A stretch of DNA of 64,000 nt, taken from Styela clava. Taxonomy: Eukaryota. A program made the position numbers. Of the stretch, positions 42,001 through 51,000 are shown piece by piece. The stretch is taken from assembly GCF_964204865.1 (NCBI RefSeq), contig NC_135250.1, positions 9,238,001-9,302,000 on the forward strand, read 5' to 3'. The stretch's first letter is position 1; each line of letters opens with the position of its first letter.

Positions 42001-45000
42001 AAAATGGAGGCTTTGGTTTCCTCACTTGGTTCTCAAGCGAGCAGTCCGAGAACTGAAACTGCCACGTTGCAAGGGCGCATATCAGCCAAATCTCCACCTG
42101 AGCTGACTGCTGATATTTCTTCGTCAGGCCTCGACTCGTGGAAGATTATGTGGTCCGATTACATGCAAGTTTCGGGCTACAATCAAGAACCACAAACGAA
42201 ACAAGTCGCTGTTTGTCGCGGATGTCTGTCGCTAGAAATGCTGTCCGTCGTAAAACACGTTCTAAATGTCAGCGAAGAGACCGAAAAATCCGTTGACGTT
42301 ATTTTAGAAGATATCAAGAAAATATTCGCAGTCAGATAAATGTTGCACTAGACAGGGTGTTGTTTGAAGAGCGCAAACAAGGTGATGGAGAAAGCTTCGA
42401 TTCGTTTTAATCGCATTGAAAAAGCTAGGAAGAGACGCTGAACTCTGCGAAAACTGCTACGATGAGCGGCCCACTACACGAATCATTGCTGGCGCAAGAA
42501 ACGCAACAGCCAGGGAAGAGCTGTTGGCGAAAAGCCCTTTTCCTAATCTACAGACAGCGGTTGATCTGTGCAGATCGAAAAAAATAACAACACTGATTTT
42601 TCGAAAAAGCAGAATTCGATTGCCAGTTCGATACAGATCAAGAAACCGTTTCAAAGACGATTCAAACCTAGGAACGTTCGCAACAACATGTCTTGTCAAT
42701 ATTGTGGACGAAGGCATGGTCAAAGATTAGCCTAGGGCGACTATGCCTGATAACTAAATATTAATGTAATGGCCGAACAATATAATTCCTGCCGGGTGGT
42801 TTTTTTTGCAACCAGCCTGAACCGTATACAAAAAATGCTGCCTATATGTCAGAAAATATAGTAATTACCCTCCTGTATCTCAAATTTGGTAAAATTCGGT
42901 AAGCAATCAATCTGCTGTTATTTGTAAGTTATTTTGCAAACATGAGTTTGAAATAAAAGCTGACCAATTCAAACATGTTTTTGACTAGATACGGGAGGAA
43001 AAATATCACAATGTTTGCTTAATATGATAACAAAAAGGGCATTTTCTTCGTATGGCACTTCCTCCGTTGTGAAGATTTTGAAGTCTTACACCGAATGTAG
43101 ATATAGTAAAACTTTTGCACGTTTGAATGAGTTTTTTGCATGTTTTAGCTTGATGAATGGCAAATAATGACCAATGTGTCTGAACAATAAAAGTGTTTGT
43201 TTTGTATGGCACTACCTATTCTTAGCACTATTGTGGCCCGCAAACAATACAAAAATTATAGTGTGGCTCGCGAGGCCGACCACCTTGGACCACCCTTACT
43301 GATTACCATCCTGGTCTATACTATAGTACTCTATATGACACGGAGAAAATAAATCACCGTTATCTAGCGTTAATTTCATCTTTTACTTATTGAGGAGATA
43401 TGACATATTCCTCGCTCAGTATTTAATTACCCGTTTGCGTTTTTACTGCTACGAAGCATGAGGCCCTCATATGTGAAATAGGGTTTTCATAATTATCACA
43501 GTGGAGACAAATCCGTGTGTAACCACGACTTTTCCTTCGCCCTCGATTGGTTACCATTTCATGTCGAGTCTGGTAATACGTTTCAGATGCATGAACTTGA
43601 TGGCGCAGGAAACCGTTATAGACAAGTGAACCATCGTGTGACGGGAAGGAATTCAGCTTACCTCTCGCACATAATTATACTCAAGGGAATCCAACCTGAT
43701 TACCCACATTGAGTTTATTGGGTGTGTGATACCAAGCGCGTTCCTGAAGCTCATATATATATTTATTCATTAAAATGTGTATATTTTCTCTTCTGTATTT
43801 CCTAAGATATGTGGCTACTGATGTTGAATTAAAAACGAGATCCTGTACTCCTTTGATTATAGAAGATAATTTATTCAAAATTATATCAAAAGATTGCAGC
43901 ATTAAAGCAAGCATTTTTTTCCCAACAGTCGCTGTCATCTTGTTCAATACATTGATGACTAAACGTTGTTCAATCTAATTTGTCTTTATTTTTATTAGGT
44001 ATGTGAAAAGGAAACATAGGTTTTGATGAATATAATGTAAAAAGCACATGGATTCGCATACCTAACGCCATTGAGCTTTCTTATCAGAGGGCGAACAAAT
44101 TTAATTGAGACAGATATTACCGTACATGCTGGCAATCAGCAATAATAATTCTTTCTTTATTATTGGAGTATTTTCAAAAGTTTTTCAAACATGATCAGAA
44201 GGGATTTTCAGTGCAAAAGTTAATAATAAGATTGCAAAAGAGAATAAACATTCTAACATAAATGTGACAAATTTTTAGCATCATTGTGAGCCCATGGGCG
44301 ACCAGCTATTCAAAGTAACAATGTTTCATGTTTGTCACATATGTTTTCTTACATCCAATATGTATATTCGTAATTTTATTCAAGTGTTGCAGGATTCAGT
44401 TCTTCCATTTCTTTTGGCTTCGGTTCTGAATTGAAGAATAATAATTTTTTTAGTCAGATTATCAGTTGAAGTTTGACGGCTTTACGATTTGCACATAATG
44501 GTATACGCTTATATATCATTGCACCGGTTATTTCTATTTGATTTTCAAATTCAATTGTCTTGAGTAATGATTGTGGGCAATGGTTACTGTACAATAACGA
44601 TTCTTTCACCATCGATGCATATGCAAATGAAGCAATTGATTGGTTGCTAATTCCATATCGACAAATAGAAAATTAGACTGTAAGTAAACTGTTTAAATGA
44701 AGATTAAAGTTTTATTTCATCGTGAATCTTCAATTCACGAACTTACGTGATCCACCCTTGGCCTTATGTTTTTTAGCTTCTTTAGTTCTTATGATGAAAA
44801 TAACCAGTGCAGTCAGCATTGCGGCTCCTGCTATAACTCCAACCACTATTCCGACGATCATTCCAGTATCAGTATAATGAACTGAAAAATTAAGAGTTAT
44901 ATTTAGATTTTAGATTAGTTTTTTAGATTTTATTTAGATTAGTTTTATTTATCTATACGGGGAAGCCGATAAATACGATGATTTGAAAAGAGTTCGAATA

Positions 45001-48000: not shown

Positions 48001-51000
48001 AGATTGATATCACGGAAAAAAATGATATCAAATTCATTTTGTAATAGTAGATATACAGTATATGATTATGATGTAAATATGGGATCTGTTGTTAAAAAAA
48101 AAGTTAAAACATCATCAGGCCCCTAGTTAGATGATTCTCCAAAACTTTGGTACAGGCGTGATGTTGATGGCACTAGGCAAAATAAAAATATTTTACTCAA
48201 GTCGCCATATTTTTTTGTTTTGTTATAGAACTAATATAGGAAATCATAGTCGTTGCAAGCCTAGTTAAGATTTTATATTGAAAACATACAAAAATTGAAA
48301 AAAATGGGGAAGAGTCTTCTAAAAATCTAACCGATTCGAATCTTCAATAATCAGTAAGAATTTTGAAAATTTCATCTATATTTCAAGATGAGTTCGCCTT
48401 CAATTGAGTAGGCATCATCTGAGGCGAGTGCGCTGGACATGAATAAGAAAGAAATTCTTTATCTTTAACTATTCTCCAATTTAGTAACGAACACTTATTC
48501 CTTTTATAAATGTATATTGTTCTGTGACGTCTGTTCAGTAAGCATACTGTACTGATTTTTTATTGATTCTTAGGGAATGTTTGATGGTGGCCAAGGTGTC
48601 GATTTCCATTGTGTCTTCCGTTCTATTTCATGTTTCAGATGCCACTTACAAATTGCTGAGTTATTTATCTGACAAAACTTTGTTTCAAGATATGCATGGT
48701 GAGACGTTACATAATTCCGAAAGGCAAGTTTCGTTTTAGGACTCACTTGTCATTCGAAATAAAATAAAATTTAGACCTTTATCGATGTTTAAGATTACAA
48801 ATACTCACTTTTATTCACCTGTTTACGTACTACTGCTTGATGCGTATCAATAAAAATGAATAGACTTTATAACAAACTTAAACAAAAAACTGAACTGAAC
48901 TTTATCTTGAAAATATTCGATAGTCTTTGAAGGCTCACACTAACTCTTCTAGTATTATATAAGGATTACTTCACGCTGACCTCTACTTGCTGTGATGGGA
49001 TCAAATTCGTTTATTATACTATTTCATAATATCAAGTAGAAAGAATATAACAAACCTTCTATTAAACAACATCGAGTTGTTAGATTTGCCCACTTCTATT
49101 CATTTACTAAGGGATTTTATTGTATCTCAAACTTGGATCAGTGACCTGGGCGCAGCGCGAGTAAGCCTTCATCGCTTCATCTCAATGCTTGATTACGGCT
49201 CTGCCCATTCGGGGCAGATGTTGTAGGATTGTATGAACTAACTTGATTTGTAGATAAGGCATAGTATCAGATTCGTATTATACCTAGATCATATACGTTT
49301 TAGGATTGAGAAACGTTTAATAATTAACGTTTCTTCGTTAGATCACATCGTTTGCTCAAGTTTCACATAGGTCGATCATTAACGAAGTGGTGGGCGGGAG
49401 ATGGTATAACGTATTATTTTTTAAATATCTTTATCTTGATCTTTTTAAATAATGATTGTTTAGTTTTGTTGCGCTAGTTAAAGTAAATATGTCAATACAC
49501 GTAGAAATCCCACCCATTCCCGCCTACGTCGTTGACGTTTTTGGAGAACAGCTTGATCACTTCTTTATAGTGAAGTGATCCAGTGGGGTTGCGCGTTTGT
49601 CTGTTTCTATACGCCCTTATTTTAACTCTAACATGTATAAGTTGTTTCCGATTCTGCCTTTTGGCACCACCAACATTTACTTTCTTTATGTTTCTGTGTA
49701 TGGGTTTCGATATTGAAACCAATCCCTTATGGTGTATTCACCCCGAAAACGCCGCGAACATAATAAAGAGAATAAATTTAGTGTGATGCGATGTATTTTT
49801 TCGCAATCCTTATTGACTATGATGTCATTTGAAAATCAGTACACTAATTAAATATTTGCATTTTATATTTATAAACCACGTTATGCTCAACATACATCTA
49901 TGTGAATAGAACAGACCAATGACATATATCACTAAATCGAGATACAAATAAGGAAAGCAATTTTAGAAAATATGGCTTATATGTATAATTGAAACGAACG
50001 TGGAATTCTCTGGATCTCGTTCTTCTTATCTCAACTGTTCACGGAGATAAGAACACATCTGTATTGATATATTTATATTGCAACTTACACAACATCAAAA
50101 TTGAGCCTTAGATGACAAGCAATCATCAATTTACTGGGGTTATTCCAGCATTGACTGATTAAAATAATTTTTGTATTGGTTCCTCCCGTTTATGTCATAA
50201 AATGGCAAGAATATCAGGGCAACCAGTAATAATATATAGGTAATTTGTGGTTCCATCGGCTTTTAAAATAACCAACATTATACTAATTCACTCAATACTG
50301 GCGAGATGTTACGTTCTGAACATTGAAGCACCATCATTTTATGTAGGAAATCAACAGCATTAATGCGGTTTGAGATAGATCATCTACAGTTCAAAGTAAA
50401 TACGATTTCTATTCAATGAAATATTTTTGGTTTTCCAGTGGTATTAACACATTACATGAGCAAACCGCAATATATGTGTACTCTAAGTAACGTCACTAGT
50501 GGATTCCTTCCAAAAAGCTTGTCTGAAGATATGTATCGAGTGGATGTATAAGAATCATTTCAAGCAAATTCAAACCTTAATCAAGAAGGTCCTCAATTTT
50601 TGCGTGCTTTTCTACGCGCGAGACGGTTTCTCCTTTCGTTATAATGTGAGACAACGAACGATAGAGTAAACATTATATGTTTATTCAGAACTGATATCAC
50701 CACAAATATTAGCTTATCATTAACGATAGACCCATAGGCCATAACGTAATCCTTGTACGAATTCACCTCGACCCACGAATACTATATGTCTCGATAGCTT
50801 TTATGGAAACTGTAATATAATATGAAAATGTAAAAAAAGTAGTTCTCGTTACCTTTGAATATTTTTTCAATTGGTTTTAATTTGTGAAAGGATATATTCT
50901 CAGCTACCAAAAAATTTTTATCGACTTATTTCACTACCATTTTCAAGATAAAAGTTTATATGATCAGCCCAAATTTGGTGCCAGAACCAAATGAAATGCG

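What the first reader, a model, noticed from the sequence alone, without database searches (positions are those of the whole stretch)
44376..48037. Riboflavin-binding-protein/folate-receptor family member built as a type I transmembrane receptor
Seen: signal peptide, a complete RBP/FOLR Cys-rich domain, a ~24-residue hydrophobic helix on its own exon (44747-44881) with a basic stop-transfer (RTKEAKKHKAK), and a ~30-aa tail ending EMEELNPATLE. Established: vertebrate members are secreted (RBP, FOLR3), GPI-anchored (FOLR1/2, JUNO) or peripheral (retbindin), not TM-plus-tail. From recalled sequences it is closer to RBP (LTEQL..P, FCGDWYEACKDD). It keeps the aromatics equivalent to the flavin-sandwiching Tyr75 (CYYQC) and Trp156 (EMW). 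It lacks the FOLR1 pterin-binding Asp and the W of the WRKER loop. Inference: a membrane flavin/vitamin-uptake or recognition receptor.
Basis: partly seen in the sequence, partly recalled or inferred. Interest (0 to 1): 0.72.

Follow-up and report, generated by a model that had tools for sequence, protein, structure and literature searches.

The report
Membrane-spanning riboflavin/folate-binding-protein relative
An animal (apparently invertebrate) gene encodes a relative of the vitamin carriers riboflavin-binding protein and folate receptor that seems to be held in the membrane by its own helix and short tail instead of a lipid anchor; this is an interesting but modest variation whose ligand is unknown.

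Summary
The seven-exon minus-strand gene model (44376-48037) is in the sequence as described. All six introns are GT..AG, the phases agree, and the CDS is 879 nt, or 292 codons.

Searched exon by exon, exon 3 matches Pfam Folate_rec above the family cut-off (53.4 bits, E 3.6e-14). Exon 2 continues the same profile colinearly, covering positions 11-108 of 172. The best solved relative is chicken riboflavin-binding protein, ahead of folate receptors and Juno.

Exon 6 carries a 26-residue uncharged stretch followed by a basic cluster. This combination occurs in 1 of 1156 ORFs of at least 30 aa in the window. A 30-residue hydrophilic tail follows, which does not fit a GPI signal.

- **Not shown by any tool:** that exons 4-5 complete the domain, and the Trp156 equivalent.
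- **Not testable here:** ligand, expression, and whether TM-anchored orthologues are common, because the protein databases were closed.
- **Left out as instructed:** the joined (spliced) protein was never built, searched or folded.

Verdict: a real gene and a new anchoring variant of a known family. The flavin-receptor function remains inference. Interest is modest.

The parts
47930..48037 (-). Exon 1: start codon, signal-peptide-like hydrophobic N-terminus (A-K-A before QEQ), and the first Cys of the ectodomain. 36 codons, ends in phase 0.
   Evidence: best 19-residue hydropathy mean 1.88. No Pfam family. The signal peptide was judged by eye; no predictor was run.
47403..47557 (-). Exon 2: first part of the Folate_rec domain, with 5 Cys and one N-x-S sequon (NYS).
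   Evidence: Pfam Folate_rec E 4.3e-4, 20.6 bits, profile 11-54/172. Chicken RBP 6hce_A E 0.025, residues 32-74.
46239..46380 (-). Exon 3: core of the Folate_rec domain, with 6 Cys. It contains CYYQC (a Tyr aligned to the RBP and FOLR1 stacking Tyr) and FCGDWYEACK.
   Evidence: Pfam Folate_rec E 3.6e-14, 53.4 bits (cut-off 29.8), profile 61-108/172. RBP 6hce_A E 1.8e-11; FOLR1, FOLR2 and Juno E 9e-7 to 1.5e-5.
45500..45625 (-). Exon 4: presumed continuation of the domain, 42 codons, 3 Cys.
   Evidence: Splice sites and phase. No Pfam family. Only chance-level PDB hits. Atlas search gave nothing usable.
45262..45424 (-). Exon 5: presumed end of the domain plus a linker, 54 codons and 1 extra base, 3 Cys. 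It contains 'EMW'.
   Evidence: Splice sites and phase. No Pfam family. No PDB hit. Atlas search gave nothing usable.
44747..44881 (-). Exon 6: transmembrane helix (26 uncharged residues) plus the basic cluster RTKEAKKHKAK. It is 135 nt and phase 1-1, so it could be skipped in frame.
   Evidence: best 19-residue hydropathy mean 2.78, and the only 1 of 1156 ORFs with this signature; only weak, below-cut-off matches to single-pass TM regions (Syndecan, EphA2_TM, Protocadherin, Podoplanin). Phases.
44376..44425 (-). Exon 7: the last 15 codons of the tail (ending EMEELNPATLE) plus the TAA stop.
44146..44151 (-). AATAAA about 225 nt after the stop, a candidate polyadenylation signal. Another AATAAA overlaps the stop codon at 44375-44380.
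   Evidence: Direct reading. No transcript data.
46937..47324 (.). Dispersed repeat inside intron 2. It is not part of the protein.
   Evidence: blastn of the region against the window: 79% identity over 188 nt and 97% over 35 nt to 58173-58417 in inverted orientation, plus a fragment at 29114-29164.

Best explanation
This is a real single-copy protein-coding gene in an AT-rich animal genome. I do not take the contig for human. It encodes a type I membrane protein.

**Architecture.** A cleaved signal peptide is followed by one pocket-type Cys-rich domain of the Folate_rec family (riboflavin-binding protein / folate receptor / Juno), with 18 Cys. Then come a short linker, one transmembrane helix and a 30-residue cytoplasmic tail that begins with a basic cluster.

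**Shown here.** Gene structure, family membership of exons 2-3, the helix, and the tail.

**Inferred.**
- The ectodomain sits on the cell surface.
- It binds a small, probably heteroaromatic ligand in the family's pocket by aromatic stacking.
- It does not bind folate in the FOLR1 manner, because the Asp and the Trp-Arg loop that hydrogen-bond folate are missing.
- The ligand could be a flavin, since the loop length and local sequence are RBP-like, but it is unknown.
- The tail has no recognisable endocytic or signalling motif, so the protein most likely acts as a tethered capture or binding protein, or a co-receptor, rather than an autonomous signalling receptor.
- The TM exon is phase-symmetric, so skipping it could give a soluble carrier from the same gene.
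For: - **Gene model:** six GT..AG introns, consistent phases, 879-nt CDS.
- **Family:** Folate_rec match of E3 above the curated cut-off, with a colinear E2 match.
- **Solved relatives:** 10 of the 11 PDB sequences hit by E3 are RBP, FOLR1, FOLR2 or Juno, with RBP best at 1.8e-11. The eleventh is dystrophin at E 0.76. RBP is the only family hit of E2.
- **Cysteines:** 18 Cys in E1-E5, against nine disulfides in RBP (passage in PMC10668813).
- **Membrane anchor:** the helix plus basic cluster is unique among 1156 ORFs. It lies 380 nt downstream of E5, in a compatible phase with AG and GT sites.
- **Robustness of the anchor:** helix and stop-transfer are on the same exon, so even retention of intron 6 would leave a TM helix plus a 19-residue tail (ORF).
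- **Pocket residues:** FOLR1 chain position 81 (Asp) faces Ile; positions 101-105 (S-W-R-K-E) face a gap; the E3 loop contains no Trp; the Tyr of CYYQC faces the Tyr of both RBP and FOLR1.
- **Literature on those residues:** Asp, Trp, Arg and His are named as the folate hydrogen-bonding residues of hFR1/2, with Arg given as R125 (PMC10199209 section 5). D103A is named as a key loss in Juno (PMC4751342 main text).
- **Copy number:** no paralogue in the window (tblastn).
Against: - There is no transcript evidence for any exon junction, so E6 and E7 could be alternative or unused.
- E4 and E5 gave no family match on their own. The C-terminal third of the domain (profile 109-172) and the second stacking aromatic are therefore unverified.
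- No signal-peptide, TM or GPI predictor was run, and none could see the whole protein because the joined step was left out.
- The Tyr is shared by folate- and riboflavin-binding members, so it says nothing about which ligand binds.
- Juno and amphioxus FrLRR show that members of this family can lose vitamin binding altogether.
- An in-frame AG lies about 50 nt upstream of the ATG (direct reading). A further 5' coding exon cannot be excluded, although the translated stretch looks non-coding.
Confidence: 0.55

Rival explanations
1. The same TM-anchored protein has lost vitamin binding and works as a protein- or particle-recognition or adhesion receptor. Precedents are Juno (binds Izumo1) and amphioxus FrLRR (bacterial binding and phagocytosis).
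For: - The FOLR1 folate-contacting Asp and the Trp-Arg loop are absent. These are the same kind of losses described for Juno (PMC4751342) and FrLRR (PMC10199209 section 5).
- A TM helix with a cytoplasmic tail is more typical of recognition receptors than of carriers.
Against: - RBP itself also lacks these residues at the aligned positions and still binds a vitamin (alignment).
- The RBP-like loop length and the retained Tyr fit a preserved pocket.
- The tail contains no known signalling motif (direct reading).
Confidence: 0.25
2. The main product is a secreted RBP-like carrier encoded by E1-E5. The TM exon would be used only in a minor isoform or not at all.
For: - Retaining intron 5 adds 7 codons and then a stop (ORF).
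- E6 is 135 nt and phase 1-1, so skipping it keeps the frame.
- The closest solved relative is a secreted protein.
Against: - E6 is an open 59-codon frame in a 33-34% GC genome. It has AG and GT sites in the right phase and a TM-plus-basic signature found in 1 of 1156 ORFs.
- No other minus-strand coding feature that could own this exon was seen nearby.
Confidence: 0.14
3. The hydrophobic stretch is a GPI-attachment signal, as in FOLR1, FOLR2 and Juno, so the mature protein is lipid-anchored.
For: Family precedent: human FR1, FR2 and FR4 are GPI-anchored (passages in PMC10199209; PMC4751342).
Against: - The hydrophobic stretch is followed by 30 hydrophilic residues, starting with 6 K/R in the first 11.
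- As established knowledge (recalled), GPI signals end with the hydrophobic stretch at or near the C-terminus.
- No GPI predictor was run.
Confidence: 0.03
4. It is not a functional gene, but a pseudogene or a chance arrangement of open frames.
For: There are no expression data, and no orthologues could be fetched to test for purifying selection.
Against: - All seven exons are open, all splice sites are canonical, and the CDS length is a multiple of three.
- E3 scores E 3.6e-14 against Folate_rec, with every Cys aligned to RBP.
Confidence: 0.03

Closest known systems
Chicken riboflavin-binding protein (RBP/RfBP, PDB 6hce)
   Same: - It is the best solved match of exon 3 (E 1.8e-11; 22 of 47 residues identical by my count; one 1-residue gap) and the only family match of exon 2.
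- The Ile at the FOLR1 Asp position is shared, and the loop is similarly short.
- The Tyr of the C-x-Y-x-C motif is aligned.
- The 18 Cys fit RBP's nine disulfides.
   Different: - RBP is secreted; this gene has a TM helix and a tail.
- No Ser/Glu-rich phosphorylated stretch like RBP residues 207-220 (printed) is seen in E5-E7 (direct reading).
- Riboflavin binding is untested, and the Trp156 equivalent was not aligned by any tool.
Folate receptors FOLR1/FOLR2 (PDB 4lrh, 4kmy and others)
   Same: Same Pfam family. Exon 3 matches at E 9e-7 to 1.5e-5 with all Cys aligned, and the stacking Tyr (chain position 85) is conserved.
   Different: - Asp81 faces Ile, and the S-W-R-K-E loop faces a 5-residue gap.
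- The FOLRs are GPI-anchored (passage), whereas here there is a TM helix plus a tail.
Juno / IZUMO1R (PDB 5ejn, 5jyj, 5f4e)
   Same: Same fold family. Exon 3 matches at about 1.5e-6 to 3.6e-6. Like Juno, this protein lacks the folate-binding Asp (PMC4751342).
   Different: Juno is GPI-anchored and described as restricted to mammals. Its partner Izumo1 has no known role here.
Amphioxus FrLRR (Folate_rec domain + Slit2-type LRR + C-terminal hydrophobic region)
   Same: It is a non-vertebrate membrane protein with an N-terminal Folate_rec domain that lacks key folate-binding residues. It is reported to act through a cytoplasmic adaptor (PMC10199209).
   Different: - FrLRR has an LRR region and, per the paper, no signal peptide.
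- Its C-terminal region is predicted both as a TM region and as a GPI site.
- Here there is only the Folate_rec-type domain, a clear signal-peptide-like N-terminus and a 30-residue tail.
Algal ATS1 / diatom FOLR-domain genes with TPP riboswitches
   Same: These are Folate_rec-family proteins outside vertebrates that are linked to a vitamin other than folate or riboflavin. This shows that the ligand range of the family is open (PMC4260697 passage; PMC9544697 passage).
HHIP N-terminal CRD and other pocket-type CRDs (NPC1)
   Same: They belong to the same structural class of pocket-type Cys-rich domains that bind small molecules (PMC8660895 passages).
   Different: No sequence match to these was found for any exon. 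HHIP carries further domains.

Membership tests
Pfam Folate_rec (PF03024) family | Match to the family profile above the curated cut-off. | tested here: met
   Exon 3 alone scores 53.4 bits against a cut-off of 29.8, E 3.6e-14. Exon 2 scores 20.6 bits (below the cut-off) and is colinear with it.
Pfam Folate_rec (PF03024) family | Whole domain present (profile positions 1-172). | tested here: inconclusive
   Positions 11-108 are covered by E2 and E3. E4 and E5 on their own match nothing.
Pfam Folate_rec (PF03024) family | Conserved Cys framework (eight disulfides in FOLR by recall; nine in RBP). | tested here: met
   There are 18 Cys in E1-E5. All 6 Cys of E3 are aligned to RBP and FOLR1 Cys. 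Nine disulfides in RBP come from a passage in PMC10668813. The pairing itself is not testable here.
Riboflavin-binding protein proper | Isoalloxazine stacked between Tyr75 and Trp156 (recalled from the abstract of Monaco 1997; the paper is not held). | tested here: inconclusive
   The Tyr is aligned (RBP chain position 92). The Trp region lies in E5, which no tool aligned.
Riboflavin-binding protein proper | Secreted carrier with a phosphoserine-rich C-terminal stretch. | tested here: not met
   A TM helix and a tail are present. No Ser/Glu cluster appears in E5-E7 (translations). The RBP stretch is visible in the alignment (residues 207-220) and is described in a passage of PMC10668813.
Riboflavin-binding protein proper | Binds riboflavin. 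| not testable with these tools
   This needs a recombinant ectodomain and fluorescence quenching.
Folate receptor (FOLR1/2) | Folate hydrogen-bonding residues Asp, Trp, Arg and His. | tested here: not met
   In one search, the Asp position faces Ile and the Trp-Arg pair faces a gap, and the loop has no Trp. The residue roles come from PMC10199209 section 5 and PMC4751342. The His position lies in E4/E5 and was not aligned.
Folate receptor (FOLR1/2) and Juno | C-terminal GPI-attachment signal. | tested here: not met
   The hydrophobic stretch is followed by 30 hydrophilic residues, beginning with a basic cluster. No GPI predictor was run.
Type I single-pass membrane protein | N-terminal signal peptide, one hydrophobic helix, and positive charges on the C-terminal side. 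| tested here: met
   Only E1 and E6 have strongly hydrophobic stretches (best 19-residue means 1.88 and 2.78). There are 6 K/R in the 14 residues after the helix. This rests on simple measures, not on a trained predictor.

The most novel reading that the evidence does not exclude
The protein is a transmembrane flavin (riboflavin) receptor of an invertebrate. It would be a membrane-spanning form of the RBP/FOLR family, perhaps close to the ancestral state from which the secreted (RBP) and GPI-anchored (FOLR, Juno) vertebrate forms derive. The phase-symmetric TM exon would let one gene make both a surface receptor and a soluble carrier.
Probability: 0.12. Interest if true: 0.55.

Novelty: new variant of a known kind. 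Interest (0 to 1): 0.3.

Why it matters
The members of this family with known function that I could read about are secreted or lipid-anchored (RBP, FOLR1-3, Juno). The one non-vertebrate membrane case I found, amphioxus FrLRR, has a different architecture.

A member with its own helix and cytoplasmic tail would couple a vitamin-type pocket directly to the cytoplasm. It would also offer a handle on two questions: how the anchoring mode changed in this family, and what non-vertebrate members bind (folate, flavin, thiamine-related compounds, or proteins).

The weight of the finding is limited. Switches between GPI and TM anchoring are common in other receptor families (general knowledge). The ligand is unknown. 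Whether such forms are frequent in predicted invertebrate proteomes could not be checked here.

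Tried and rejected
- **Read-through of the 75-nt intron 4.** I sent E4-intron-E5 by reference to Pfam and to PDB to give E4 and E5 a longer query. Both tools returned an error because the frame holds 3 stops. I did not pursue this with any altered code.
- **RBP chain for pairwise comparison.** Fetching the RBP chain by its PDB handle failed because it is not a valid id. 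E4 and E5 therefore could not be compared directly with RBP.
- **ESM Atlas.** E5 gave no usable hit. E4 gave only unnamed bacterial clusters at 0.90-0.91 and unrelated families at lower scores. Neither gave a lead.
- **Complex prediction.** I submitted the pieces E2, E3, E4 and E5 as separate chains, with E5 as partner. The score was 0.09 against a mark of 0.34, the partner pLDDT was under 50, and the controls were not run. The tool gave no verdict, so this is not evidence either way.
- **Paralogues in the window.** tblastn of each exon piece found only the self-hits. All other hits had E of 0.59 or more.
- **Rfam at gathering thresholds.** 0 matches over the whole window.
- **Taxon of the contig.** No tool here holds eukaryotic genomes. 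The neighbouring exons (Arm repeat, Choline_transpo, TIL) say only 'animal'.
- **Literature.** None listed a paper describing a Folate_rec-only protein with a TM helix and cytoplasmic tail. The C. elegans FOLR-1 papers gave no statement on its anchor in the passages I saw.
- **Papers not held.** Monaco 1997, Chen 2013 and Wibowo 2013 were unavailable.
- **GPI reading.** Considered and rejected because of the 30-residue charged tail.
- **Alternative GPI-like exon in intron 5.** Rejected because the one hydrophobic-ended ORF there (44953-45042) has no AG acceptor in front of it (direct reading).

Full report
**What is there**

- E1 47930-48037
- E2 47403-47557
- E3 46239-46380
- E4 45500-45625
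- E5 45262-45424
- E6 44747-44881
- E7 44376-44425

A script checked the arithmetic without joining anything. All six introns begin with GT and end with AG, and the phases follow on from one another. The coding length is 879 nt, or 292 codons plus TAA. The window contains no N. The introns are 372, 1022, 613, 75, 380 and 321 nt long. The window has 30-39% G+C.

The neighbouring exons match an Arm repeat, a choline-transporter-like protein and a TIL domain. The contig is therefore from an animal, and I do not take it for human. Its species could not be determined with the tools at hand.

**The joined step**

The joined protein was never built, searched, folded or run through a predictor. This leaves several things open:
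- a whole-domain Pfam score
- trained signal-peptide, TM and GPI predictions
- any model of the pocket
- any phylogeny

**Family membership**

- E3 alone (47 aa) matches Pfam Folate_rec at 53.4 bits (cut-off 29.8), E 3.6e-14, profile positions 61-108 of 172.
- E2 matches positions 11-54 at 20.6 bits, E 4.3e-4. This is below the cut-off but colinear with E3.
- E1, E4 and E5 match nothing. E6 gives only weak, below-cut-off matches to TM regions of single-pass proteins such as Syndecan, EphA2_TM, Protocadherin and Podoplanin.

Against solved structures, E3 hits 11 distinct sequences at E up to 10:
- chicken riboflavin-binding protein 6hce_A is best, at E 1.8e-11 and 46.7 bits
- nine FOLR1, FOLR2 or Juno sequences follow, at 28-32 bits
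- dystrophin appears at E 0.76, which I take for chance

E2 hits RBP at E 0.025. Its four other hits are zinc-finger chains at E above 4.

E4 gives eight dynamin-1-like chains at E 0.7-1.8, which I take for chance. E5 gives nothing.

So the first two thirds of the domain are firmly Folate_rec. No tool showed that E4-E5 complete the domain. What speaks for completion:
- the colinear gene structure
- six further Cys, giving 18 in E1-E5, against nine disulfides reported for RBP (passage in PMC10668813)
- my recollection of the RBP sequence after the shared EACK motif, which is a lead and not a test

**Closer to RBP?**

Yes, but modestly. By my count from the printed alignments, E3 is identical to RBP at 22 of 47 positions with one 1-residue gap. 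It is identical to FOLR1 at 18 of 45 positions with a 5-residue gap.

That gap removes the FOLR1 stretch S-W-R-K-E (chain positions 101-105), and the E3 loop contains no Trp. FOLR1 position 81 (Asp) faces Ile, as it does in RBP. The Tyr of CYYQC faces the Tyr of RBP (chain position 92, which would be Tyr75 of the mature protein if the signal peptide is 17 residues, by recall). It also faces Tyr85 of FOLR1.

The roles of these residues come from papers:
- Asp, Trp, Arg and His form the key hydrogen bonds with folate in hFR1/2, with Arg given as R125 (PMC10199209 section 5, read in full).
- D103A is named as a key substitution in Juno (PMC4751342 main text). Its supplementary alignment was not available.

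The stacking of riboflavin between Tyr75 and Trp156 is recalled from the abstract of Monaco 1997, which is not held.

The Tyr is shared by folate and riboflavin binders, so it does not tell the ligand. The loss of the folate contacts argues against FOLR1-type folate binding. It does not by itself argue for flavin binding.

**Membrane anchoring**

E6 contains a 26-residue stretch free of K, R, D, E, H, Q and N, with a best 19-residue Kyte-Doolittle mean of 2.78. It is directly followed by RTKEAKKHKAK.

Among the 1156 stop-to-stop ORFs of at least 30 aa in the six frames of the window:
- 7 have a comparable hydrophobic stretch
- only this one also has four or more K/R in the next 14 residues

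It lies 380 nt downstream of E5 with AG and GT sites in the matching phase. After the helix come 30 hydrophilic residues: 14 in E6, one split codon and 15 in E7.

Helix and basic cluster are on the same exon. Retaining intron 6 would therefore still give a helix and a 19-residue tail (ORF 44730-44909).

A GPI signal is thus unlikely. That judgement rests on general knowledge of GPI signals, since no predictor was run.

Two routes to a soluble form exist on paper:
- retaining intron 5 adds 7 codons and then a stop
- E6 is 135 nt and phase 1-1, so skipping it keeps the frame

Neither has any transcript evidence.

The tail has no Tyr, no NPxY, no [DE]xxxL[LI] and no PxxP motif (direct reading). 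Nothing in it points to endocytosis or signalling.

**Signal peptide and ends**

- E1 starts at the first ATG of its frame and has a hydrophobic core ending in A-K-A before QEQ. This was judged by eye.
- An in-frame AG about 50 nt upstream could mark a further 5' exon. The stretch between it and the ATG translates to a Tyr/His/Ile-rich string that looks non-coding.
- AATAAA occurs at 44146-44151 and also overlaps the stop codon.

**Surroundings**

- There is no second copy of any exon in the window. tblastn gives self-hits only, with all other hits at E 0.59 or more.
- There are no Rfam matches.
- Intron 2 holds a dispersed repeat with an inverted copy at 58173-58417.

**What is known**

Human FR1, FR2 and FR4 are GPI-anchored and FR3 is not (passage in PMC10199209). 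Juno is GPI-anchored and described as restricted to mammals (PMC4751342).

Amphioxus FrLRR combines a Folate_rec domain with LRRs and a C-terminal hydrophobic region that is predicted both as TM and as a GPI site. It has lost key folate contacts and is reported to act in bacterial binding and phagocytosis.

RBP, FR, Juno, NPC1 and the HHIP N-domain are classed together as pocket-type Cys-rich domains (passages in PMC8660895).

Algal ATS1 and diatom FOLR-domain genes carry thiamine-pyrophosphate riboswitches (passages in PMC4260697, and PMC9544697). This suggests a wider ligand range for the family.

The passages I saw in two C. elegans FOLR-1 papers say nothing about its anchor.

None of the six searches aimed at the architecture listed a paper on a Folate_rec-only protein with a TM helix and a cytoplasmic tail. 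This covers only the held library.

**Verdict**

The gene and its architecture are real as far as sequence alone can show. The protein is a member of the Folate_rec family with an RBP-like, non-FOLR1-like pocket region and a TM-plus-tail anchor. I rate it a new variant of a known kind.

The proposed function as a flavin or vitamin-uptake receptor is an inference with no test behind it. I put it at roughly one in eight that the protein is specifically a flavin receptor.

Interest is modest, at 0.3. Anchor switching is a common evolutionary change, the ligand is unknown, and no expression or conservation data could be brought in.

Noticed in passing
window 46937-47324 (intron 2), 58173-58417, 29114-29164: A dispersed repeat. 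The intron copy matches an inverted copy near 58.2-58.4 kb at 79% identity over 188 nt and 97% over 35 nt. A 51-nt fragment lies at 29.1 kb. It is probably an interspersed element and was not classified.
   Followed up: partly
window 44747-44881: The TM exon is 135 nt and phase 1-1, so skipping it would keep the reading frame and give a soluble protein with the same C-terminal 15 residues (arithmetic). There is no transcript evidence.
   Followed up: partly
window 21759-22370: A 305-nt unit is present twice in tandem at 100% identity. This is either a very recent duplication or an assembly artefact.
   Followed up: no
window 24450-24701: A 47-nt minisatellite with 5.4 copies at 85% match lies just beside the choline-transporter-like exons.
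   Followed up: no
window 5770-6045 (-), 24811-25191 and 25417-25671 (-), 62927-63223 (+): These are exons of neighbouring genes: an Armadillo repeat (E 8e-20), a plasma-membrane choline-transporter family member (E 3e-15 and 3e-14, consecutive profile parts) and a TIL domain (E 3e-7). They are unrelated to the finding and show that the contig is from an animal.
   Followed up: partly
window 40001-44000, ORFs 41848-42339 (+) and 42386-42730 (+): A patch with higher G+C (39% against about 33%) lies just beyond the 3' end of the gene. It holds two long plus-strand ORFs of 163 and 114 aa. Their only Pfam match is a weak, below-cut-off coiled-coil hit. It may be a remnant of a mobile element. A 21-nt tandem repeat lies within it at 41942-42008.
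   Followed up: partly
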